A stretch of 64,000 bases of DNA from Candidatus Woesearchaeota archaeon (lineage in GTDB: Archaea > Nanobdellota > Nanobdellia > Woesearchaeales > GW2011-AR4), in assembly GCA_016187495.1 (NCBI GenBank), contig JACPJP010000012.1, positions 81,150-145,149 on the forward strand. The letters run 5' to 3'. The notes beneath the pieces were generated by a model. It was not told where the DNA came from and made no database searches. It saw only the letters and a list, made by a program, of their open reading frames with translations. Positions 29,358 to 49,150 of the stretch are shown one piece after another (position 1 is the stretch's first letter; each line of letters opens with the position of its first letter). A program made the translations under genes and the position numbers.

Positions 29358-29374
29358 TCAAAAACTACCCATCA
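29358..29374. repeat. Terminal inverted repeat of the IS (downstream end relative to the transposase)
   Basis: TCAAAAACTACCCATCA. Confidence 0.8.
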
Positions 29375-29451
29375 TAAGTGGAATTTTGAGTGGCAAAAAC
29401 CATGCTATTGTTTAGCTTAATAAAATATGCCACCCATCTCTGATCTCATCC

Positions 29452-30807
29452 TTACCCACATCTTACGAGCCTCGCACCTTCACATAACTTTTGGACTTCA
29501 TCCCAACCTCGCCATATCGTAATCCATCCTGGATCTCCATCATTTTTTCTTCCTAGGAATCCCCCAATTTTTGCAACCTCTATCCAAAAATCTTTTAATG
29601 TCATTGAATCCGTATCTTTCAAGGTTTTTCTTTCAAGAACTTCCAGCGTTACACCATCAATATAATCCTTGGAAAACAGATGCTGTCCGCTTTTAACTTG
29701 TTCTTTAATCTGAAGCAGCCTCAATGCAACGACACTTAAAAAATCCATCAGTCTTTCTATTCTTTTATTGTCTTTTAATTGTCTTTCTTCAAGCCGACAT
29801 CCAGTCTTTAAACATTTGTGATATTCTTCAACAATCCATCTTATCGCATACAGGTCAAGAACCTTGCAATTTTCTCTAAATGAGTTTGCTTTGAGGGAGG
29901 TAAGTATAACCCACTCAACAGGCCCTTCTTTTTTTTGGGGTTTAACCTCTCTAGCATAAATTACTCTGCATTTTAAAGGTCGTTTATTTTGAAATGGATA
30001 GGATGGTTGTATAACTATTTCTTTACTAGCCACCTTTAATTTAGCGATCCTTTTTTTGTGTTGGGAAGATTTTCTTATTAGCAATCTAACAGTGCCTAGA
30101 GGTTTAGTATCCTTAATTAGTTCAAACAGTTTTTTCTTTTCAGAAACGATTTTTCTGTTATAAGCTGCTCTTATTATGAAATCATGGCTTAAAGAAAGTG
30201 AATCTTCCATTACTCTATAAATATCTGCACCACGATCCATAATATCAACATATTTTGTTGAAGTAGTGGATGAGCCAATAGCATTTAAAGCATTATTCCA
30301 CAAATCAGATTCTCTTTCTCTACTATATCTCAACTTCTTGGTTTCTTTGTTCGGTTTTGGCTTTCGATAGTGTATCTCCTGGTGCAGTAAACCAAGAACT
30401 TTTGGAAAAGGTGAAGGTACGATTGCTAGCGAGGTGTGTAATAGAAAGCCTTTGCTTAGGCCTTTGCCAACTTGAGATAAGCCATCTATTTCTGAAGAGA
30501 CACCATAATTTATCTCGCTAGTGTCATGAATGCACAAAACAGTATCATAACCCATTACGACTTTTTTAGTTTCACTAAAATAAGGGGATATGAGCGAACT
30601 ATATTTCACGGAAGGGTTGTCCAAAAAGCGATAACAGGCTTTTGTAGAAGCCCAGTCCCCCATTTGATGCGGTATCAGACTATTTGGTTTCTCAAACATT
30701 TTACTACCTATCTCACTTGCACGATTGCTTAAACGCAAATCTCTAAGATTACAAGCTTCCCAGTGATTTCCTATATTGCTAATTGAGTGATTTGTTCCAA
30801 AATACAT
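29452..30807 (-). CDS. IS4-family DDE transposase (Tn5-like)
   Basis: The track ORF starts at GTG 30816; the ATG at 30807 follows GAGGTGA. Tn5-like N-terminus ..ACYRFLDNPSVKYSSL..LCIHDTSEINY (D1), IMDRGAD (D2), and an exact Y-2-R-3-E-6-K signature YAIRWIVEEYHKCLK. Confidence 0.9.
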   Translation of the reverse strand: MYFGTNHSISNIGNHWEACNLRDLRLSNRASEIGSKMFEKPNSLIPHQMGDWASTKACYRFLDNPSVKYSSLISPYFSETKKVVMGYDTVLCIHDTSEINYGVSSEIDGLSQVGKGLSKGFLLHTSLAIVPSPFPKVLGLLHQEIHYRKPKPNKETKKLRYSRERESDLWNNALNAIGSSTTSTKYVDIMDRGADIYRVMEDSLSLSHDFIIRAAYNRKIVSEKKKLFELIKDTKPLGTVRLLIRKSSQHKKRIAKLKVASKEIVIQPSYPFQNKRPLKCRVIYAREVKPQKKEGPVEWVILTSLKANSFRENCKVLDLYAIRWIVEEYHKCLKTGCRLEERQLKDNKRIERLMDFLSVVALRLLQIKEQVKSGQHLFSKDYIDGVTLEVLERKTLKDTDSMTLKDFWIEVAKIGGFLGRKNDGDPGWITIWRGWDEVQKLCEGARLVRCG

Positions 30808-30868
30808 AAATATCACCTCTTATAATATAAACATATTAGCATATATTTATGGGTAATGGTAAGATCTC

Positions 30869-30885
30869 TGATGGGTAGTTTTTGA
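30869..30885. repeat. Terminal inverted repeat of the IS (upstream end relative to the transposase)
   Basis: TGATGGGTAGTTTTTGA, the exact reverse complement of 29358-29374. Confidence 0.8.
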
Positions 30886-33393: not shown

Positions 33394-33675
33394 TATAATT
33401 CGGCAAAATAAGATAATTATAAACGTTTTGGTAGTGTTATGCAAAGTTTCCAACTGCGCAAGGGCTTTTGGCGAAGGGAAGGGTAGCGTCAAGATGTGAG
33501 CATTTGTTAAATAACAAGCGCATTGACAGAGGGGTTGCTCACGGACGTCCACCTCCTCTTTTGATATGCTTTGCAAAGGGGCTCGACTTCAAGGCTGCTA
33601 AACACATACCCCGTTTAGATAGATTTTAATATAAAGATACGAAAACTCTCAAGATATAATGGGGTAGCAAGAAAT

Positions 33676-44691: not shown

Positions 44692-47600
44692 CTAGGCTGT
44701 ATCATTGCCTTCCCAATCCACTTTCCAGACTATAATCCTGCCTCCAAACAGGGTTGTTTCGTCACTAAATTTTTTAAAGTGCCTTAAGCCTACGCCTTCT
44801 TGGTAAAAAAGCCTTGTGAATATTGATGATGTAAGGTCAGAATCCATTACAACAGCATTATAGCTTTCGCCGTCTTTTACTAATGCAACTCCAAGGCTCC
44901 TGCCATTCTGCAAAGTTATGATAGATTCATTATATTCCTTTAAAGTTATGCCTTGGTCTGTAGGGAATGATGCTAATTTTGGGTGCACTCTTCCCGTTGT
45001 GCTTTCCGCATAAATCTCATTAGTGCTTAAGTTAGCTATTAATGGAATGCCTGATATGGCGCAGCTTAATGTCAGGTTGCCTATTTTTTCGCATCCTGCA
45101 GATCCTGCATAGCCGGGCCAAGGCGCAATCCAGCTGTTTGCCTGGTCACTTGTTATTATTGATTGTACTTCATAAAACAGCTTTTCTGCATCATTTTTGC
45201 TATAGTTAAACCTTTCCTGCAGGAATTTAATGCTTTTATCCAGATCGTTGCTGTATTCCTTCTTCTTTAATATGTTATATACCAATGCTTTGTCAAAACT
45301 CCAACTGCCGAAATGCGCCCATACACCGCTTTTTCCCACCATATCCTCAGAGGTTATGAAATAGTTTTCAGGAGGCTCACAATGGGTTTTGTTTAGTATT
45401 TCTTCAGCCCATTTTTCATTGAATTTTTCAACTAGGATTTTTTTTGCATATTCTCTCTCTAGAGGCATGATCTCATATAGTACATCAATGGCTTCTGTCC
45501 CGTCTTTGGTATATTTTGAAATTGTAATAAAGCCTTCCCTGCTGCCGCAATCAAGCATTCTTAATATTCCTATTGCGAGCTTTTCATCGCCTGTTAGAAG
45601 GACCTTCCCTATCCAATGAGCGGGGGGTGTATTCTGGCTTGTGCCGTCAAAGGTAACTGGACGGTCTGCCCAGTATTTAAACCAATGCCCAAAGTCCCAC
45701 CAGGAATTTATTATAGCGTTAGGCTTTGAATCTTCCTTTATCCTTTCCAAGGAAATTGCCCATGCATCATTAAAGTCTGGTGCAAAATTTGTTGCAGTAT
45801 CATAGGATGATATATAAGGCGGAATTAGCAGCAAACCAAGAACAATCATTGCTATAGTCTTTGATGTCAGCTTATTGATTTGTAGCGCTTTCGCAGCCCA
45901 ATCACTTGAGTACTTATAGGCATGGTAGAGAGCGATGCCAAATCCTATCGCGAATGGAGGCACAGCGAGCAGAGTAAATCTTATGCCCTTTGTGCTAGCA
46001 TATATCGTGGATATAAACCATAATATAAGCAAAATTGCATACTTTATCTCAATTTCAGTATCCGATTCCCAAATCGCTATAAACCCCCTAATGGCAATCG
46101 GAATGCTTATCAGTATCAAAAATGTATTCAGGTTCTGCACATTAAGCATAACTATCACTAAGTACCATGCGAGTATTCCAGCGAAAAAAAATAAATTCTT
46201 GCGGCCTTTTGTCTTTAATGTTAGGTTGATTCCAATCAATGCAATTAGAAAAAAGAATATTTTCCCTAGGCCAACTTGATTAACTACATGGCTGAGGGAG
46301 GCAGGATTTTGCTCTGCAACAGTTGTAAAGACATTAGGCCATATTGTTGTAATGCCGACTTCTTTCAGCTTTGCAAAACCCGTTGGATTTGTATAAAATT
46401 TTTTGAAGTGCTCATAGCTTACAAAGAAGCTTACGCTTAATGCAGACACTATGAAAAATACCCCAAGAAAGGTTATTGAATTTCTTATAGCCTCTTGTTT
46501 TGTGAAGCTAGTAAAACTTCGCATTAATTCCTGTCTATGCACGAATGAGTAATACATCATATACAGAACCGTAGAAACCAAGATAAAATCAAAAATATAC
46601 CACCAGCCACCCCATGTGAAGCTGTATATGCCAATTAACAAACCAGCGAGAATGCTTAATATAGCTACATTCCTTACGTTTTTAGCTTCCAGTGCCTCAA
46701 TGAAAATCCACGCTATGGAAAGAGGGAATAAAATATTAAAACCATCTGTATCAAAAATGCCACCCATGGTTCTGCTCAAGAATGATGGGTGTATTGCAAG
46801 AATTGTGGCTGCTATAAAACCGCCAAAGTTTCCAGCAATTTTTTTTGTAATGAAAAATATAGGTATTATCGTCAAGGCTGAAATAAGGACAGGAACATAA
46901 AAAGCGACTGTAGCTAAGCTAAGATTCGGGTTAAAAAAACTTAGGAACTTAAATAAATATGCAGTAAAGTAAGCAAGAAATATATCGAATGGCATACCCC
47001 TGCCCGTAGGAGCAAGCATATGGTTATCATACGGCTTACCATTTTTTATTTCATCACCTGGATGACCATTTTTAATGATATTCTTTGTAAATCTCAGCCA
47101 GTAATATGGGTCTATTGTAGGCAAATATGATTGTCCAAATTCATCCTGCAATCTTGATTTAATGGCTTGCGAACCAGCATAAATCTGTTGGTCAATTACC
47201 AATTTCTGCTCACCCAATACCTTTTGAAGCTCATTATTGATTAATGCATCCTTGTTTTGCTGCGGAAGATTTGGATACTGCTGGCTTATTTGAGATGATA
47301 TTTGTGATCTTATGCTGTTAATAACGGAGTTCGCAGCCCACTGGTCTGTCATAGGAAGGTATGCAGTCTGCATCCTAAGGAATATTGAAAGGAAGATTGG
47401 TATCAACAATAGAAATAATGCCCTGTAGCGAATTACAAAATCTGAAATTTTTTTGAAATCGACAGATACGTCCTCTTCAGACTCATGTTCAGTCTTTGAC
47501 TGCCTGCCCTTAAATATACCTTTAATGTTTTTAATTTTTGAAAAGTCAATAGAAATCTCATCTTCCTCCTTTCCTCCTTTTTCTGAAGCAGCACCTGATT

Positions 47601-47835
47601 TTTCTGCTGCAGATTTTTCTTTTTTCTTGAATATGTTCTTTATTTTGCTAAGGTCGATAGCAATTTCGTCATCATCTTTTTTTATTTCTGTAGCATCATT
47701 ACTAACAGCAACTTGGCTATCTTTTGCTTCTTCCTTTGACTCAGGCTTTGCATCTTCTCTTTTCCTTTTGAAGAAGCCTTTTATCTTGCTGAAGTCAATA
47801 GAAATCTCATCTTCTTTTTCGTACATAAAAACCAC
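44692..47835 (-). CDS. aglB: Archaeal oligosaccharyltransferase AglB (STT3 family), copy 1
   Basis: 1047 aa. 13-TM-type N-terminal region with TIDPYYWLRF in loop 1. WWDFGHWFKYWADRPVTFDG (WWDYG motif). Large C-terminal soluble domain. Confidence 0.9.
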   Translation of the reverse strand: MVFMYEKEDEISIDFSKIKGFFKRKREDAKPESKEEAKDSQVAVSNDATEIKKDDDEIAIDLSKIKNIFKKKEKSAAEKSGAASEKGGKEEDEISIDFSKIKNIKGIFKGRQSKTEHESEEDVSVDFKKISDFVIRYRALFLLLIPIFLSIFLRMQTAYLPMTDQWAANSVINSIRSQISSQISQQYPNLPQQNKDALINNELQKVLGEQKLVIDQQIYAGSQAIKSRLQDEFGQSYLPTIDPYYWLRFTKNIIKNGHPGDEIKNGKPYDNHMLAPTGRGMPFDIFLAYFTAYLFKFLSFFNPNLSLATVAFYVPVLISALTIIPIFFITKKIAGNFGGFIAATILAIHPSFLSRTMGGIFDTDGFNILFPLSIAWIFIEALEAKNVRNVAILSILAGLLIGIYSFTWGGWWYIFDFILVSTVLYMMYYSFVHRQELMRSFTSFTKQEAIRNSITFLGVFFIVSALSVSFFVSYEHFKKFYTNPTGFAKLKEVGITTIWPNVFTTVAEQNPASLSHVVNQVGLGKIFFFLIALIGINLTLKTKGRKNLFFFAGILAWYLVIVMLNVQNLNTFLILISIPIAIRGFIAIWESDTEIEIKYAILLILWFISTIYASTKGIRFTLLAVPPFAIGFGIALYHAYKYSSDWAAKALQINKLTSKTIAMIVLGLLLIPPYISSYDTATNFAPDFNDAWAISLERIKEDSKPNAIINSWWDFGHWFKYWADRPVTFDGTSQNTPPAHWIGKVLLTGDEKLAIGILRMLDCGSREGFITISKYTKDGTEAIDVLYEIMPLEREYAKKILVEKFNEKWAEEILNKTHCEPPENYFITSEDMVGKSGVWAHFGSWSFDKALVYNILKKKEYSNDLDKSIKFLQERFNYSKNDAEKLFYEVQSIITSDQANSWIAPWPGYAGSAGCEKIGNLTLSCAISGIPLIANLSTNEIYAESTTGRVHPKLASFPTDQGITLKEYNESIITLQNGRSLGVALVKDGESYNAVVMDSDLTSSIFTRLFYQEGVGLRHFKKFSDETTLFGGRIIVWKVDWEGNDTA
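47425..47814 (-). repeat. Four copies of an ~18-aa motif ((E/D)DEI(S/A)ID(F/L)SKIKxxFK) in the cytoplasmic N-terminal tail of AglB copy 1
   Basis: aa 8-25, 55-72, 91-111 and 120-137. Copies 1 and 3 share the identical 20-nt string GATGAGATTTCTATTGACTT. Confidence 0.75.
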
Positions 47836-47889
47836 GCTTTAATCAAGAAGGAGGACATTACATTTTTTTAAAAACCTTTTGTTTTGGTT

Positions 47890-48054
47890 TAGGTTGGTGA
47901 GAAATTGAAGGTTGTCATCAATATGCGAGCATCCGAATGTGAAACATCAAGCGGACAGGGGGACTTGCCCCCTACGGGGATGTCCACTTTCAAAAATAAA
48001 AGTAAATGCGAGCGATGGCAACCCGAGTGAAAACGATAATTTTTCACCAACCTA
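47890..48054 (+). ncRNA. Candidate structured RNA of unknown class (alternative: MITE-like inverted-repeat element)
   Basis: Closing helix of 17 bp (47890-47906 / 48038-48054) and a second 10-bp helix (47910-47919 / 48014-48023). Each contains one G-U that would be an A-C mismatch on the minus strand. GC-rich core GGACAGGGGGACTTGCCCCCTACGGGGATGTCC. A-T-rich TATA-like run at 47864-47875 and a TTTT run at 48056-48059. Confidence 0.35.
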
Positions 48055-48061
48055 GTTTTCG

Positions 48062-49150
48062 TCAAAGAACAAACTTAGAAAACAACAAAAACCTAGGCTC
48101 CCTTAGTAATAGATTCAAGACTAATGGAATTGGAGTGTCCCGGTCGTATTTTTTCAGAATATTTTTTACTTTCTCCTGATTCATTAATTTGAGCAATCTG
48201 TCATAATCCTTGTCAGAAAATTTATCCAATATGTTCCTGATTTTTAGGTGTAATAACAATTCCCTTCCAGACTGTTTTTTGAATTCTTTATTGTAGTCCT
48301 TATTGTTAATAATGCAGTCGCATAATGTAGTTGCGGCTTTTAATGAGGGTATTATTCCCCCACCAGTTGTAGCTTTTACCTGCGTTGCAGCATCCCCAAT
48401 CAAAAATACATTGTCTTTTTGTATTATTTTTTTTGGATCGTAAAGAGGAATAATCCCGGATTCCCAGCATAAGATTTCCTTGCTGCCAGTTTTTGATTCC
48501 AGGAATTTGTAGAAATGCTCTTTTGCATTATTAAATGCCCCTAATCCCAATCTAGCAACGTCCTCTGATTCAGGGACAACCCAGCCGAAGAAATCCGGAA
48601 AGCTTTCTCCAAAATGGGTTTCAAACGCATCCAAATCAGATTTAAGCTTTACTTTTGCCTGCATCCCAATATAAAACTTGGAGTTTAAATTCAAATTAGC
48701 GGCTTTTGCGACAGCAGAAGAAGGGCCATCAGCTCCAACAACTATTTCGGAATCAATATTCTTAGTTTCATTATTATTCTTATTTTTTGTTTTAATTGAA
48801 TTTGTATTATTGAAGCCAATGAATTGATGATTTGTCAGAATTTTAGCTCCTGCATCAGCAGCCATGTTAGCAATAAACTCATCAAACTTATTTCTCCACA
48901 TCACTATTTCACCAGTTTCTGCAACAATTCTTTTGTTTTTGCTCACAACAACAACTTTATTGCATCTGTTTGCTATTATATTACTCGGCAGCTTTACAAA
49001 TTTTTCAATAGAGCCTGTAACAATTCCTGTGCATTGCACTGGGCTGCCTATCTTATCGTGCTCTTCTATTAAAGTGATGTCTTTTCCCTGCTTTGCAAGA
49101 AGATACGCAAGGTAGCTGCCCGCAGGGCCTGCGCCTACAATTGTTATCAT
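48062..49150 (-). CDS. Geranylgeranyl reductase-family FAD-dependent oxidoreductase
   Basis: 362 aa. MITIVGAGPAGSYLAYLLA (dinucleotide fold), ..VQCTGIV.., LIGDAA motif. Confidence 0.8.
   Translation of the reverse strand: MITIVGAGPAGSYLAYLLAKQGKDITLIEEHDKIGSPVQCTGIVTGSIEKFVKLPSNIIANRCNKVVVVSKNKRIVAETGEIVMWRNKFDEFIANMAADAGAKILTNHQFIGFNNTNSIKTKNKNNNETKNIDSEIVVGADGPSSAVAKAANLNLNSKFYIGMQAKVKLKSDLDAFETHFGESFPDFFGWVVPESEDVARLGLGAFNNAKEHFYKFLESKTGSKEILCWESGIIPLYDPKKIIQKDNVFLIGDAATQVKATTGGGIIPSLKAATTLCDCIINNKDYNKEFKKQSGRELLLHLKIRNILDKFSDKDYDRLLKLMNQEKVKNILKKYDRDTPIPLVLNLLLREPRFLLFSKFVL

What the first reader, a model, noticed from the sequence alone, without database searches (positions are those of the whole stretch)
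47890..48054. 165-nt strongly paired element between the reductase gene and aglB: orphan structured RNA or MITE
Seen: a 17-bp closing helix and a nested 10-bp helix enclose a locally GC-rich core. The core has mutually exclusive hairpins: GGGGG(47958-62)/CCCCC(47968-72) versus CCCC(47969-72)/GGGG(47976-79), inside a GGACA/TGTCC stem. There is also an 8-nt direct repeat ATGCGAGC (47923-30 and 48006-13). Both imperfect pairs in the long helices are G-U on the + strand and A-C on the - strand, which weakly favours a + strand RNA (only two informative positions, so about a 1 in 4 chance of occurring by accident). An A/T-rich TATA-like run (47864-47875) lies ~20 nt upstream, and TTTT follows immediately. 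Both flanking genes are on the opposite strand. Established: in AT-rich archaea, GC-rich islands in intergenic DNA are good predictors of structural RNAs. I could not match it to tRNA, 5S, SRP, RNase P, C/D or H/ACA patterns.
Basis: partly seen in the sequence, partly recalled or inferred. Interest (0 to 1): 0.6.

Follow-up and report, generated by a model that had tools for sequence, protein, structure and literature searches.

The report
Hairpin-shaped MITE upstream of aglB
The 165-base "structured RNA candidate" is a small non-coding jumping-DNA element (a MITE) that inserted between two genes of a tiny groundwater archaeon; it belongs to a large, uncatalogued family, but it is an ordinary kind of element.

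Summary
Window 47890-48054 folds into a long nested hairpin (RNA MFE -60.8 kcal/mol, z -5.9).

It is not an orphan RNA gene. It is a miniature inverted-repeat transposable element (MITE):
- It has 17-bp terminal inverted repeats and a 9-bp target-site duplication (GTTTTGGTT / GTTTTCGTC).
- An orthologous reductase-aglB locus (L156) lacks exactly the element plus one duplication copy. Its aglB promoter block is otherwise identical.
- The 22-nt apical core GGGGGACTTGCCCCCTACGGGG recurs in 29 loci of 17 Woesearchaeota-type genomes and in 27 metagenome contigs, several copies per genome.
- About half of the testable copies have exact 8-9-bp duplications abutting their inverted repeats. Permuted controls give 0-1.

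The stems covary strongly. However, G-U (35) equals A-C (37), so pairing is kept at the DNA level, symmetrically on both strands, not in an RNA. The "TATA box" is the aglB promoter. There is no Rfam or tRNA match.

The element ends (GG..TTGTTG) and the 9-bp duplication resemble the IS903 group of IS5. No transposase was found.

The unusual residue is a strongly conserved, asymmetric hairpin core.

Verdict: a new member of a known kind, of low to moderate interest.

The parts
47881..47889 (.). Left copy of the 9-bp target-site duplication (GTTTTGGTT)
   Evidence: It matches the right copy at 7 of 9 positions and directly abuts the element. The empty site in L156 holds a single GTTTTGTCT-type 9-mer.
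47890..47906 (.). Left terminal inverted repeat (TAGGTTGGTGAGAAATT), the 5' strand of outer helix P1
   Evidence: The same type of end occurs in L176 (TAGGTTGTTGCGAAA) and L182 (GGGGTTGTTGCGAAAT, with an exact 9-bp duplication).
47910..47919 (.). P2 5' strand (GGTTGTCATC). It pairs with 48014-48023.
   Evidence: The P2 helix has changes on both sides in 11 of its 12 pairs across the family.
47925..47932 (.). P3 5' strand (GCGAGCAU) with central tandem G.A/A.G. It pairs with 48006-48013 and explains the 'direct repeat' ATGCGAGC.
   Evidence: Read directly from the sequence. The homologous helix is Watson-Crick paired in other copies.
47953..47957 (.). P4 5' strand (GGACA). It pairs with 47981-47985.
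   Evidence: All 7 P4 pairs show changes on both sides across the family.
47958..47979 (+). Asymmetric apical core GGGGGACTTGCCCCCTACGGGG: the P5 hairpin plus a purine tail
   Evidence: An exact 22-mer is present in 29 genome loci and 27 metagenome contigs. The 29-mer 47955-47983 is where the Logan contigs break, and it has at least 4 other contexts in the same runs.
48024..48037 (.). Bulge on the right arm only (CGAGTGAAAACGAT). It is conserved as CGAGYGAARYGAG in related copies.
   Evidence: L136, L138, L146, L148, L175, L176, L182.
48038..48054 (.). Right terminal inverted repeat (AATTTTTCACCAACCTA)
   Evidence: Position 48043 is C in all four runs, which gives a perfect 17-bp repeat.
48055..48063 (.). 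Right copy of the target-site duplication (GTTTTCGTC). It overlaps the last two bases of the reductase stop codon.
47863..47880 (-). aglB core promoter: the TATA-like run TTTTTAAAAAAA plus the BRE-like AAAAGG, read on the - strand. It is not part of the element.
   Evidence: The block CAAAACAAAAGGTTTTTAAAAAAATGTAATGT is invariant in L155, L156 and L157, which lack this element.
44692..47835 (-). aglB (STT3-type oligosaccharyltransferase), the flanking gene whose promoter lies beside the insertion
   Evidence: Pfam PF02516, E 2e-47.
48062..49150 (-). Geranylgeranyl-reductase-like FAD oxidoreductase, the flanking gene whose stop codon abuts the insertion
   Evidence: Pfam PF01494.

Best explanation
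Window 47890-48054 is one copy of a non-autonomous DNA transposon (a MITE). It belongs to a family that is widespread in Woesearchaeota-type DPANN archaea.

Shown here:
- The element has 17-bp terminal inverted repeats.
- It is flanked by a 9-bp duplication of the target.
- It is absent, together with one duplication copy, from the orthologous site of a close relative.
- It has many dispersed relatives that carry their own 8-9-bp duplications.

Inferred:
- A transposase supplied in trans bound the inverted repeats, made a 9-bp staggered cut between the reductase stop codon and the aglB BRE/TATA, and joined the element in. Gap repair then made the duplication.
- That transposase was probably a DDE enzyme of the IS5/IS903 type, judged from the GG..TTGTTG ends and the 9-bp duplication.
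- The nested helices are a DNA-level palindrome, because pairing is kept equally on both strands. They are not the fold of a selected RNA.
- The asymmetric apical core and the right-arm bulge are most likely sites needed for mobilisation, such as transposase or host-factor binding or a hairpin/cruciform signal.
- At this locus the copy is probably a neutral passenger. It left both the stop codon and the promoter intact. If transcribed, it would be as read-through from the reductase gene on the - strand.
For: 1. Empty site. L156 (reductase 87% identical) reads stop-TAG ACAAAAC AAAAGGTTTTTAAAAAAATGTAATGTC, with a 59-nt gap. The window has 165 + 9 extra bases at exactly that point.
2. Target-site duplications.
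   - The window's duplication matches at 7 of 9 positions and directly abuts the repeats.
   - 12 of 29 genome copies gave a hit (one, L144, is spurious) and 11 of 22 metagenome copies have exact 8-mers abutting inverted repeats.
   - Controls that pair the left flank of one copy with the right flank of another give 0-1.
3. Dispersed copies.
   - The core 22-mer is in 29 loci of 17 genomes, with up to 5 loci per genome, and in 27 metagenome contigs.
   - The covariance model finds further copies with diverged cores.
   - Logan contigs break at the core 29-mer, and both the core and the left arm occur with other flanks in the same runs.
4. Strand symmetry. G-U 35 vs A-C 37. When flanked by Watson-Crick pairs, 11 vs 8, with 96% Watson-Crick pairs.
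5. Not a known RNA. No Rfam family scores below E 0.75, and the only hit on the element itself (mir-548, the Made1 inverted-repeat family) has E 4.6. No tRNA is found.
6. The IS903 inverted repeat GGCTTTGTTGAATAAATC was verified in an annotated plasmid copy. It resembles the family ends GGTTTTGTTGAAAAG (L146) and GGGGTTGTTGCGAAAT (L182).
Against: - No autonomous element with matching ends was found in about 444 kb of held sequence.
- The one IS in the window has unrelated ends, TCAAAAACTACCCATCA.
- The window's own duplication is imperfect (7 of 9).
Only one full copy plus one chimeric remnant lie in the 64-kb window.
- Ordinary MITE decay does not predict stems that differ completely between copies yet stay 96% Watson-Crick paired. 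It also does not predict a core conserved across elements of 35-72% G+C.
- The + strand folds better than the - strand in 20 of 27 copies, so some RNA-level role is not excluded.
Confidence: 0.92

Rival explanations
1. It is a stand-alone structured small RNA gene, transcribed from the + strand from the upstream TATA-like run and ended by the TTTT.
For: The fold is strong and covariation in the family is strong. The + strand is more stable than the - strand in 20 of 27 copies.
Against: - The TATA run is the aglB promoter, conserved in loci without the element.
- The element is absent from an orthologous site.
- Target-site duplications and dispersed copies are present.
- G-U equals A-C.
- One of the two G-U pairs is G-C in the population.
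- Orientation relative to neighbouring genes is mixed, roughly 13 sense to 5 antisense by my crude hand tally of ORF orientations. The window copy is antisense.
- There is no Rfam match.
Confidence: 0.03
2. It is a MITE whose internal module (P2-P5 plus the core) is itself a selected functional unit. That unit would be either a structure-specific DNA signal required for transposition (hairpin or cruciform) or a cargo used by the host, such as an insulator or terminator between a gene end and the next promoter.
For: - The core 22-mer is exact in 56 loci whose remaining sequence is only about 58% identical to the family consensus.
- In copies with a diverged core, the P5 5' strand, the P5 3' strand and the purine tail change together (GGGGG/CCCCC/GGGG to GGGGA/UCCCU/GGGA, or AGAGG/UCUCU/GAGA).
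- The same interior is carried between different end types, GTATTTGTTTAGC versus GGCTCTGTCCCGAAT and GGGGTTGTTGCG.
- Extra hairpins are inserted in L143 and L154 without loss of the frame.
Against: - The exact-core set was ascertained by the core itself. Nine copies found without that criterion have core identity of only 0.32-0.95, against 0.34-0.68 for the rest of the element.
- There is no transposase, no transcript and no biochemical data.
- The three-way change could equally reflect three binding sites for one co-evolving protein.
Confidence: 0.3
3. It is a locally evolved regulatory hairpin: a terminator for the reductase gene or an operator for aglB.
For: It sits between a stop codon and a promoter. 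A T5 run lies inside it on the - strand.
Against: The orthologous locus functions with a 59-nt spacer and no element. The same element family sits between unrelated genes, including convergent gene ends. Target-site duplications are present.
Confidence: 0.02

Closest known systems
Prokaryotic MITEs, including archaeal ones (Sulfolobus SM1-SM4 from my own knowledge; the automated census in PMC11602168, which lists a Woesearchaeal genome among the MITE-densest archaea at 105 per Mb)
   Same: Short, non-coding and multi-copy, with terminal inverted repeats, target-site duplications, intergenic positions and an empty site in a relative.
   Different: This family has not been described at family level in the papers I searched. 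Its stems differ completely between copies yet stay paired, and it has an asymmetric conserved apical core.
IS903 group of the IS5 family and MITEs derived from it
   Same: The target duplication is 9 bp (from my own knowledge of ISfinder). The terminal GG and the TTGTTG at positions 5-10 match: IS903 GGCTTTGTTGAATAAATC (verified) against GGTTTTGTTGAAAAG and GGGGTTGTTGCGAAAT.
   Different: No IS903-type transposase was found with these ends. The window copy's end (TAGGTTGGTGAG) is a weaker match. Duplications can be read as 8 or 9 bp. A second end type (GTATTTGTTTAGC) is less similar.
Long-hairpin bacterial MITEs (Correia/NEMIS, ERIC, RUP, REPINs; from my own knowledge)
   Same: The whole element folds into one long imperfect hairpin. 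Head-to-head doublets occur (L129, L134, L152), as in REPINs. Copies can lie inside transcripts.
   Different: REP/REPIN elements make no target duplication and use a Y1 (RAYT) enzyme. No RNase or promoter function is shown here.
Promoter-targeting ISLre2/TnGBS-type (Mutator-like) elements
   Same: The window copy ends 15 nt upstream of the aglB TATA run. The duplications are 8-9 bp.
   Different: In my set, 3 of 12 well-bounded copies lie between convergent gene ends. The 59-nt ancestral spacer leaves almost no other tolerated site, so survivorship explains the position equally well.

Membership tests
MITE | Short and non-coding | tested here: met
   The element is 165 bp. Only mechanical ORFs of 41-58 aa overlap it. 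There is no conserved reading frame, because the stems differ between copies.
MITE | Terminal inverted repeats | tested here: met
   17 bp, matching at 16 of 17 positions in the window and 17 of 17 in the public runs.
MITE | Target-site duplication | tested here: met
   The window copy matches at 7 of 9. Exact 8-9-bp duplications occur in 11-12 of 29 and 11 of 22 other copies, against 0-1 in permuted controls.
MITE | Multiple dispersed copies | tested here: met
   - 56 exact-core loci, up to 5 loci per genome, plus further model hits.
- Other contexts for the core and the left arm occur in the same sequencing runs.
MITE | Empty (unoccupied) orthologous site | tested here: met
   L156 lacks the element plus one duplication copy, and its flanks are otherwise collinear.
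MITE | A cognate autonomous IS with the same ends | tested here: not met
   No IS-sized pair of matching ends was found in about 444 kb. The IS in the window has unrelated ends. This does not disqualify a MITE, but it leaves the transposase unknown.
IS5/IS903-derived element | 9-bp duplication and IS903-like terminal sequence | tested here: inconclusive
   Duplications can be read as 8 or 9 bp. The ends share GG..TTGTTG with the verified IS903 repeat, but the identity is partial.
IS5/IS903-derived element | A DDE_Tnp_1-type transposase in the host lineage that binds these ends | not tested
Structured non-coding RNA gene | Covariation that preserves pairing | tested here: met
   84% of cells are paired, against 41-48% with slid partners. 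168 cells have changes on both sides. 0 of 500 shuffles reach the observed values.
Structured non-coding RNA gene | Strand-specific signature (G-U tolerated, A-C not) | tested here: not met
   G-U 35 vs A-C 37 (p 0.91). When flanked by Watson-Crick pairs, 11 vs 8.
Structured non-coding RNA gene | Conserved at orthologous loci, with its own promoter and terminator | tested here: not met
   It is absent from L156. The adjacent TATA belongs to aglB.
Structured non-coding RNA gene | Membership of a described RNA family | tested here: not met
   Rfam 15 at E up to 10 gives only chance-level hits. ARAGORN finds nothing.
Structured non-coding RNA gene | A discrete transcript | not testable with these tools
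   No RNA run holds the stretch.

The most novel reading that the evidence does not exclude
A long-lived MITE superfamily of Woesearchaeota-type archaea carries an internal hairpin module that is itself under selection as a DNA structure. The module is a set of nested stems that are free to change as long as both strands stay complementary, capped by an asymmetric purine-pyrimidine-purine core able to form two alternative hairpins. This would point to a structure-dependent step in mobilisation, such as cruciform or single-strand hairpin recognition by an unidentified transposase or host factor, combined with 8-9-bp staggered integration next to promoters.
Probability: 0.25. Interest if true: 0.6.

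Novelty: new member of a known kind. Interest (0 to 1): 0.3.

Why it matters
- It removes a false candidate for a new archaeal RNA. It also shows a trap for RNA discovery in DPANN genomes: MITEs here give excellent folds and strong 'covariation', and only the G-U/A-C symmetry test, target-site duplications and empty sites reveal them.
- It documents an uncatalogued MITE family spread over at least 17 species-level genomes. These small genomes are known only from an automated census to be MITE-rich.
- If the conserved core proves necessary for mobility, it would be a handle for finding the still-unknown transposase.
- The insertion also marks the aglB promoter precisely, by comparison of the filled and empty sites.

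Tried and rejected
- A 17-mer of the inverted repeat scanned in genome contigs gave only single chance matches.
- A paired-end pattern found one unrelated gammaproteobacterial simple repeat, L120. It did not find the window's own genome, which is evidently not in that collection.
- Rfam and tRNA searches were negative. The mir-548 hit at E 4.6 only reflects a resemblance of the inverted repeat to the Made1 mariner MITE, and the TA-duplication (IS630/mariner) idea was dropped once 8-9-bp duplications were seen.
- A k-turn reading of the GCGAGC motifs was considered. The bulge is not adjacent to the tandem G.A pairs, so it was not adopted.
- L173 looked like an orthologous insertion because its flanks are similar (GTTTTGG/GTTTTCG). 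BLAST shows that only the element matches, not the flanks.
- The IS4-like element in the window (29358-30885) was checked as a possible partner. Its ends are unrelated.
- A search for IS-sized pairs of family ends in all held loci found nothing convincing.
- The core is absent from viral contigs.
- No RNA runs are available.
- Promoter targeting was looked at by eye in 12 well-bounded copies. It is suggestive for 7-8 of them but cannot be separated from survivorship in very short spacers.

Full report
**Observation**

The stretch 47890-48054 is as described.
- An outer helix of 17-18 bp pairs 47890-47907 with 48037-48054.
- A 10-bp helix pairs 47910-47919 with 48014-48023.
- A GGACA/TGTCC stem encloses GGGGGACTTGCCCCCTACGGGG (47958-47979).

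Folding energies are far beyond shuffled controls:
- RNA, + strand: -60.8 kcal/mol, z -5.9.
- RNA, - strand: -53.8, z -4.8.
- DNA parameters: -30.2, z -5.0.

The flanking genes are aglB (44692-47835, -) and a geranylgeranyl-reductase-like flavoprotein (48062-49150, -). Earlier notes of this scan place the genome in Woesearchaeota (DPANN), from groundwater. The public runs that hold the locus are groundwater metagenomes.

**Not a known RNA**

Rfam 15 at E up to 10 gave only chance-level hits. The one hit on the element itself was mir-548 at E 4.6, a family derived from the inverted repeats of a mariner MITE. ARAGORN found no tRNA in the window.

**First sign of repetition**

All Logan contigs that carry the reductase gene stop about 107 nt after its stop codon, inside the element.

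Laying contigs of four runs on the locus gave the following:
- The aglB-side contig ends at 47983 and the reductase-side contig begins at 47955.
- The 29-mer core is therefore a graph branch point, with at least four other left and right contexts per run.
- The left arm (47891-47931) also occurs in other contigs with other flanks.
- Position 48043 is C in all runs, which makes the inverted repeat perfect.

**The family**

The core 22-mer occurs exactly in 29 loci of 17 genomes. Almost all are labelled Woesearchaeota, Nanoarchaeota or 'archaeon'. Four assemblies are labelled Methanosarcinales, which I did not verify. Some genomes have up to five loci. The core also occurs in 27 metagenome contigs and in no viral contig.

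Around the core, every copy has nested helices. Their sequences differ between copies but stay complementary.

On a plain MAFFT alignment of 23 copies, the named structure P2-P5 gave these counts:
- 84% of cells paired, against 41-48% with slid partners.
- 168 cells with changes on both sides.
- 0 of 500 shuffles reaching the observed values.

A covariance model found 45 matches in 30 sources. These include copies with diverged cores and head-to-head doublets in L129, L134 and L152.

**Mobile DNA, not an RNA gene: four results**

1. *Target-site duplications.*
   - 12 of 29 genome copies gave a hit (one of them, L144, is spurious), and 11 of 22 metagenome copies have an exact 8-mer direct repeat abutting the inverted repeats. 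Many of these repeats extend to 9 bases.
   - Controls that pair the left flank of one copy with the right flank of another give 0-1.
   - The window copy has GTTTTGGTT (47881-89) and GTTTTCGTC (48055-63), a 7-of-9 match that directly abuts the element.
2. *Empty site.*
   - Close orthologues of the reductase were found and their contigs were fetched.
   - L156 (87% identity) reads '...TTTTTAG ACAAAAC AAAAGGTTTTTAAAAAAATGTAATGTC...', with a 59-nt spacer between the reductase and aglB.
   - The window has the same flanks plus the 165-bp element and a second copy of the 9-mer.
   - L157/L158 carry a different insert of about 125 nt at the same point. L155 carries an extra gene there.
- The block CAAAACAAAAGGTTTTTAAAAAAATGTAATGT is invariant in all four sequences aligned (the window, L155, L156, L157).
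3. *Strand symmetry.*
   - In the model-based alignment of 34 full copies, G-U and A-C mismatches are equal (35 vs 37, p 0.91).
   - Counting only mismatches flanked by Watson-Crick pairs gives 11 vs 8, with 605 Watson-Crick pairs.
   - A selected RNA fold should tolerate G-U far more than A-C. Here pairing is kept at the DNA level.
4. *Orientation.* Orientation relative to neighbouring genes is mixed. The window copy is antisense to both neighbours.

**Ends and the likely enzyme (inferred)**

The ends fall into related types:
- GGGGTTGTTGCGAAAT (L182, with an exact 9-bp duplication)
- TAGGTTGTTGCGAAA (L176)
- TAGGTTGGTGAGAAATT (the window)
- GGTTTTGTTGAAAAG (L146)
- GGCGTTATTGAAAAG
- GGCTCTGTCCCGAAT
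- GCTGCGTTCAAAAT
- a shorter type, GTATTTGTTTAGC / GTATGTGCATAGC

The IS903 inverted repeat GGCTTTGTTGAATAAATC was checked in an annotated plasmid copy. It shares the terminal GG and the TTGTTG. From established knowledge, IS903-group elements make 9-bp duplications.

I therefore infer a DDE transposase of that kind acting in trans. None was found:
- The IS in the window has unrelated ends.
- No IS-sized pair of family ends exists in about 444 kb of held sequence.

**What remains unusual**

- The interior is shared by elements with different ends. It accepts extra hairpins (L143, L154) and keeps an asymmetric core.
- In copies found without requiring the core, the core is still on average better conserved than the rest of the element (0.32-0.95 vs 0.34-0.68 identity to consensus).
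- When the core changes, the P5 5' strand, the P5 3' strand and the purine tail change together: GGGGG/CCCCC/GGGG becomes GGGGA/UCCCU/GGGA, or AGAGG/UCUCU/GAGA. It could equally mean three sites for one co-evolving protein.
- I regard a structure-dependent step in mobilisation as possible (about 0.25) but unproven.

**Position**

The element ends 15 nt upstream of the aglB TATA run, and its right duplication overlaps the reductase stop codon. Earlier notes of this scan report promoter-docked MITEs in other Woesearchaeota.

In my 12 well-bounded copies, 7-8 lie just upstream of a promoter and 3 lie between convergent gene ends. With a 59-nt ancestral spacer, survivorship explains the window copy equally well.

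**Literature**

- No paper in the library treats Woesearchaeota MITEs at family level.
- An automated census lists a Woesearchaeal genome among the MITE-densest archaea, at 105 per Mb (PMC11602168).

**Verdict**

This is a real feature, correctly seen. It is a MITE of an uncatalogued family, which makes it a new member of a known kind.

Noticed in passing
window 33462-33609: A chimeric remnant of the same superfamily. Positions 33478-33533 match the left half of an L182-type element (89%). Positions 33547-33609 match the reverse complement of the left half of an L180/L161-type element (92%), ending in GCTGCTAAACACATAC. The two halves are joined at a degenerate core (AGAGGGGTTGCTCACGGACGTC). 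The covariance model does not score the region as a member (best on-target hit E 0.71).
   Followed up: partly
L157/L158 5090-5222: A different non-coding insert of about 125 nt, containing the hairpin CACCCCTCAAAGAGGGGTG, sits at the same point between the reductase stop and the aglB promoter where the window has its MITE. This suggests either a preferred insertion spot or the only tolerated one.
   Followed up: no
L155 3972-4817: In another close relative, a 281-aa gene on the opposite strand, with no Pfam hit on record, lies between the reductase and aglB. This intergenic point is a recurrent site of change.
   Followed up: no
L129 138-409, L134 2769-3036, L152 651-918: Two family units lie head-to-head and overlap by a few bases. 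Together they are bounded by GTAATTGTTTAGC-type ends. These are doublets reminiscent of REPINs.
   Followed up: partly
L143 and L154 (3' of the core): Two extra short hairpins are inserted between the core and the 3' strand of P4, and the rest of the element is kept.
   Followed up: no
L130, L131, L133, L134, L149, L151 (record titles): Four assemblies that carry this Woesearchaeota-type element are labelled 'uncultured Methanosarcinales archaeon'. Either the labels are wrong or the family reaches beyond DPANN. Not checked.
   Followed up: no
window 48043: The window has T where all four public runs have C. In the runs the inverted repeat is perfect.
   Followed up: yes
window 29358-30885: An IS with perfect 17-bp inverted repeats (TCAAAAACTACCCATCA) and a 454-aa ORF. 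Its ends are unrelated to the MITE.
   Followed up: partly
window 47826-47835: The aglB start is more likely the ATG of ATGTACGAAAAAGAAGATGAG than the upstream GTG at 47835 listed mechanically. The orthologues begin ATGGA(A/C/T)GA at the aligned position.
   Followed up: no
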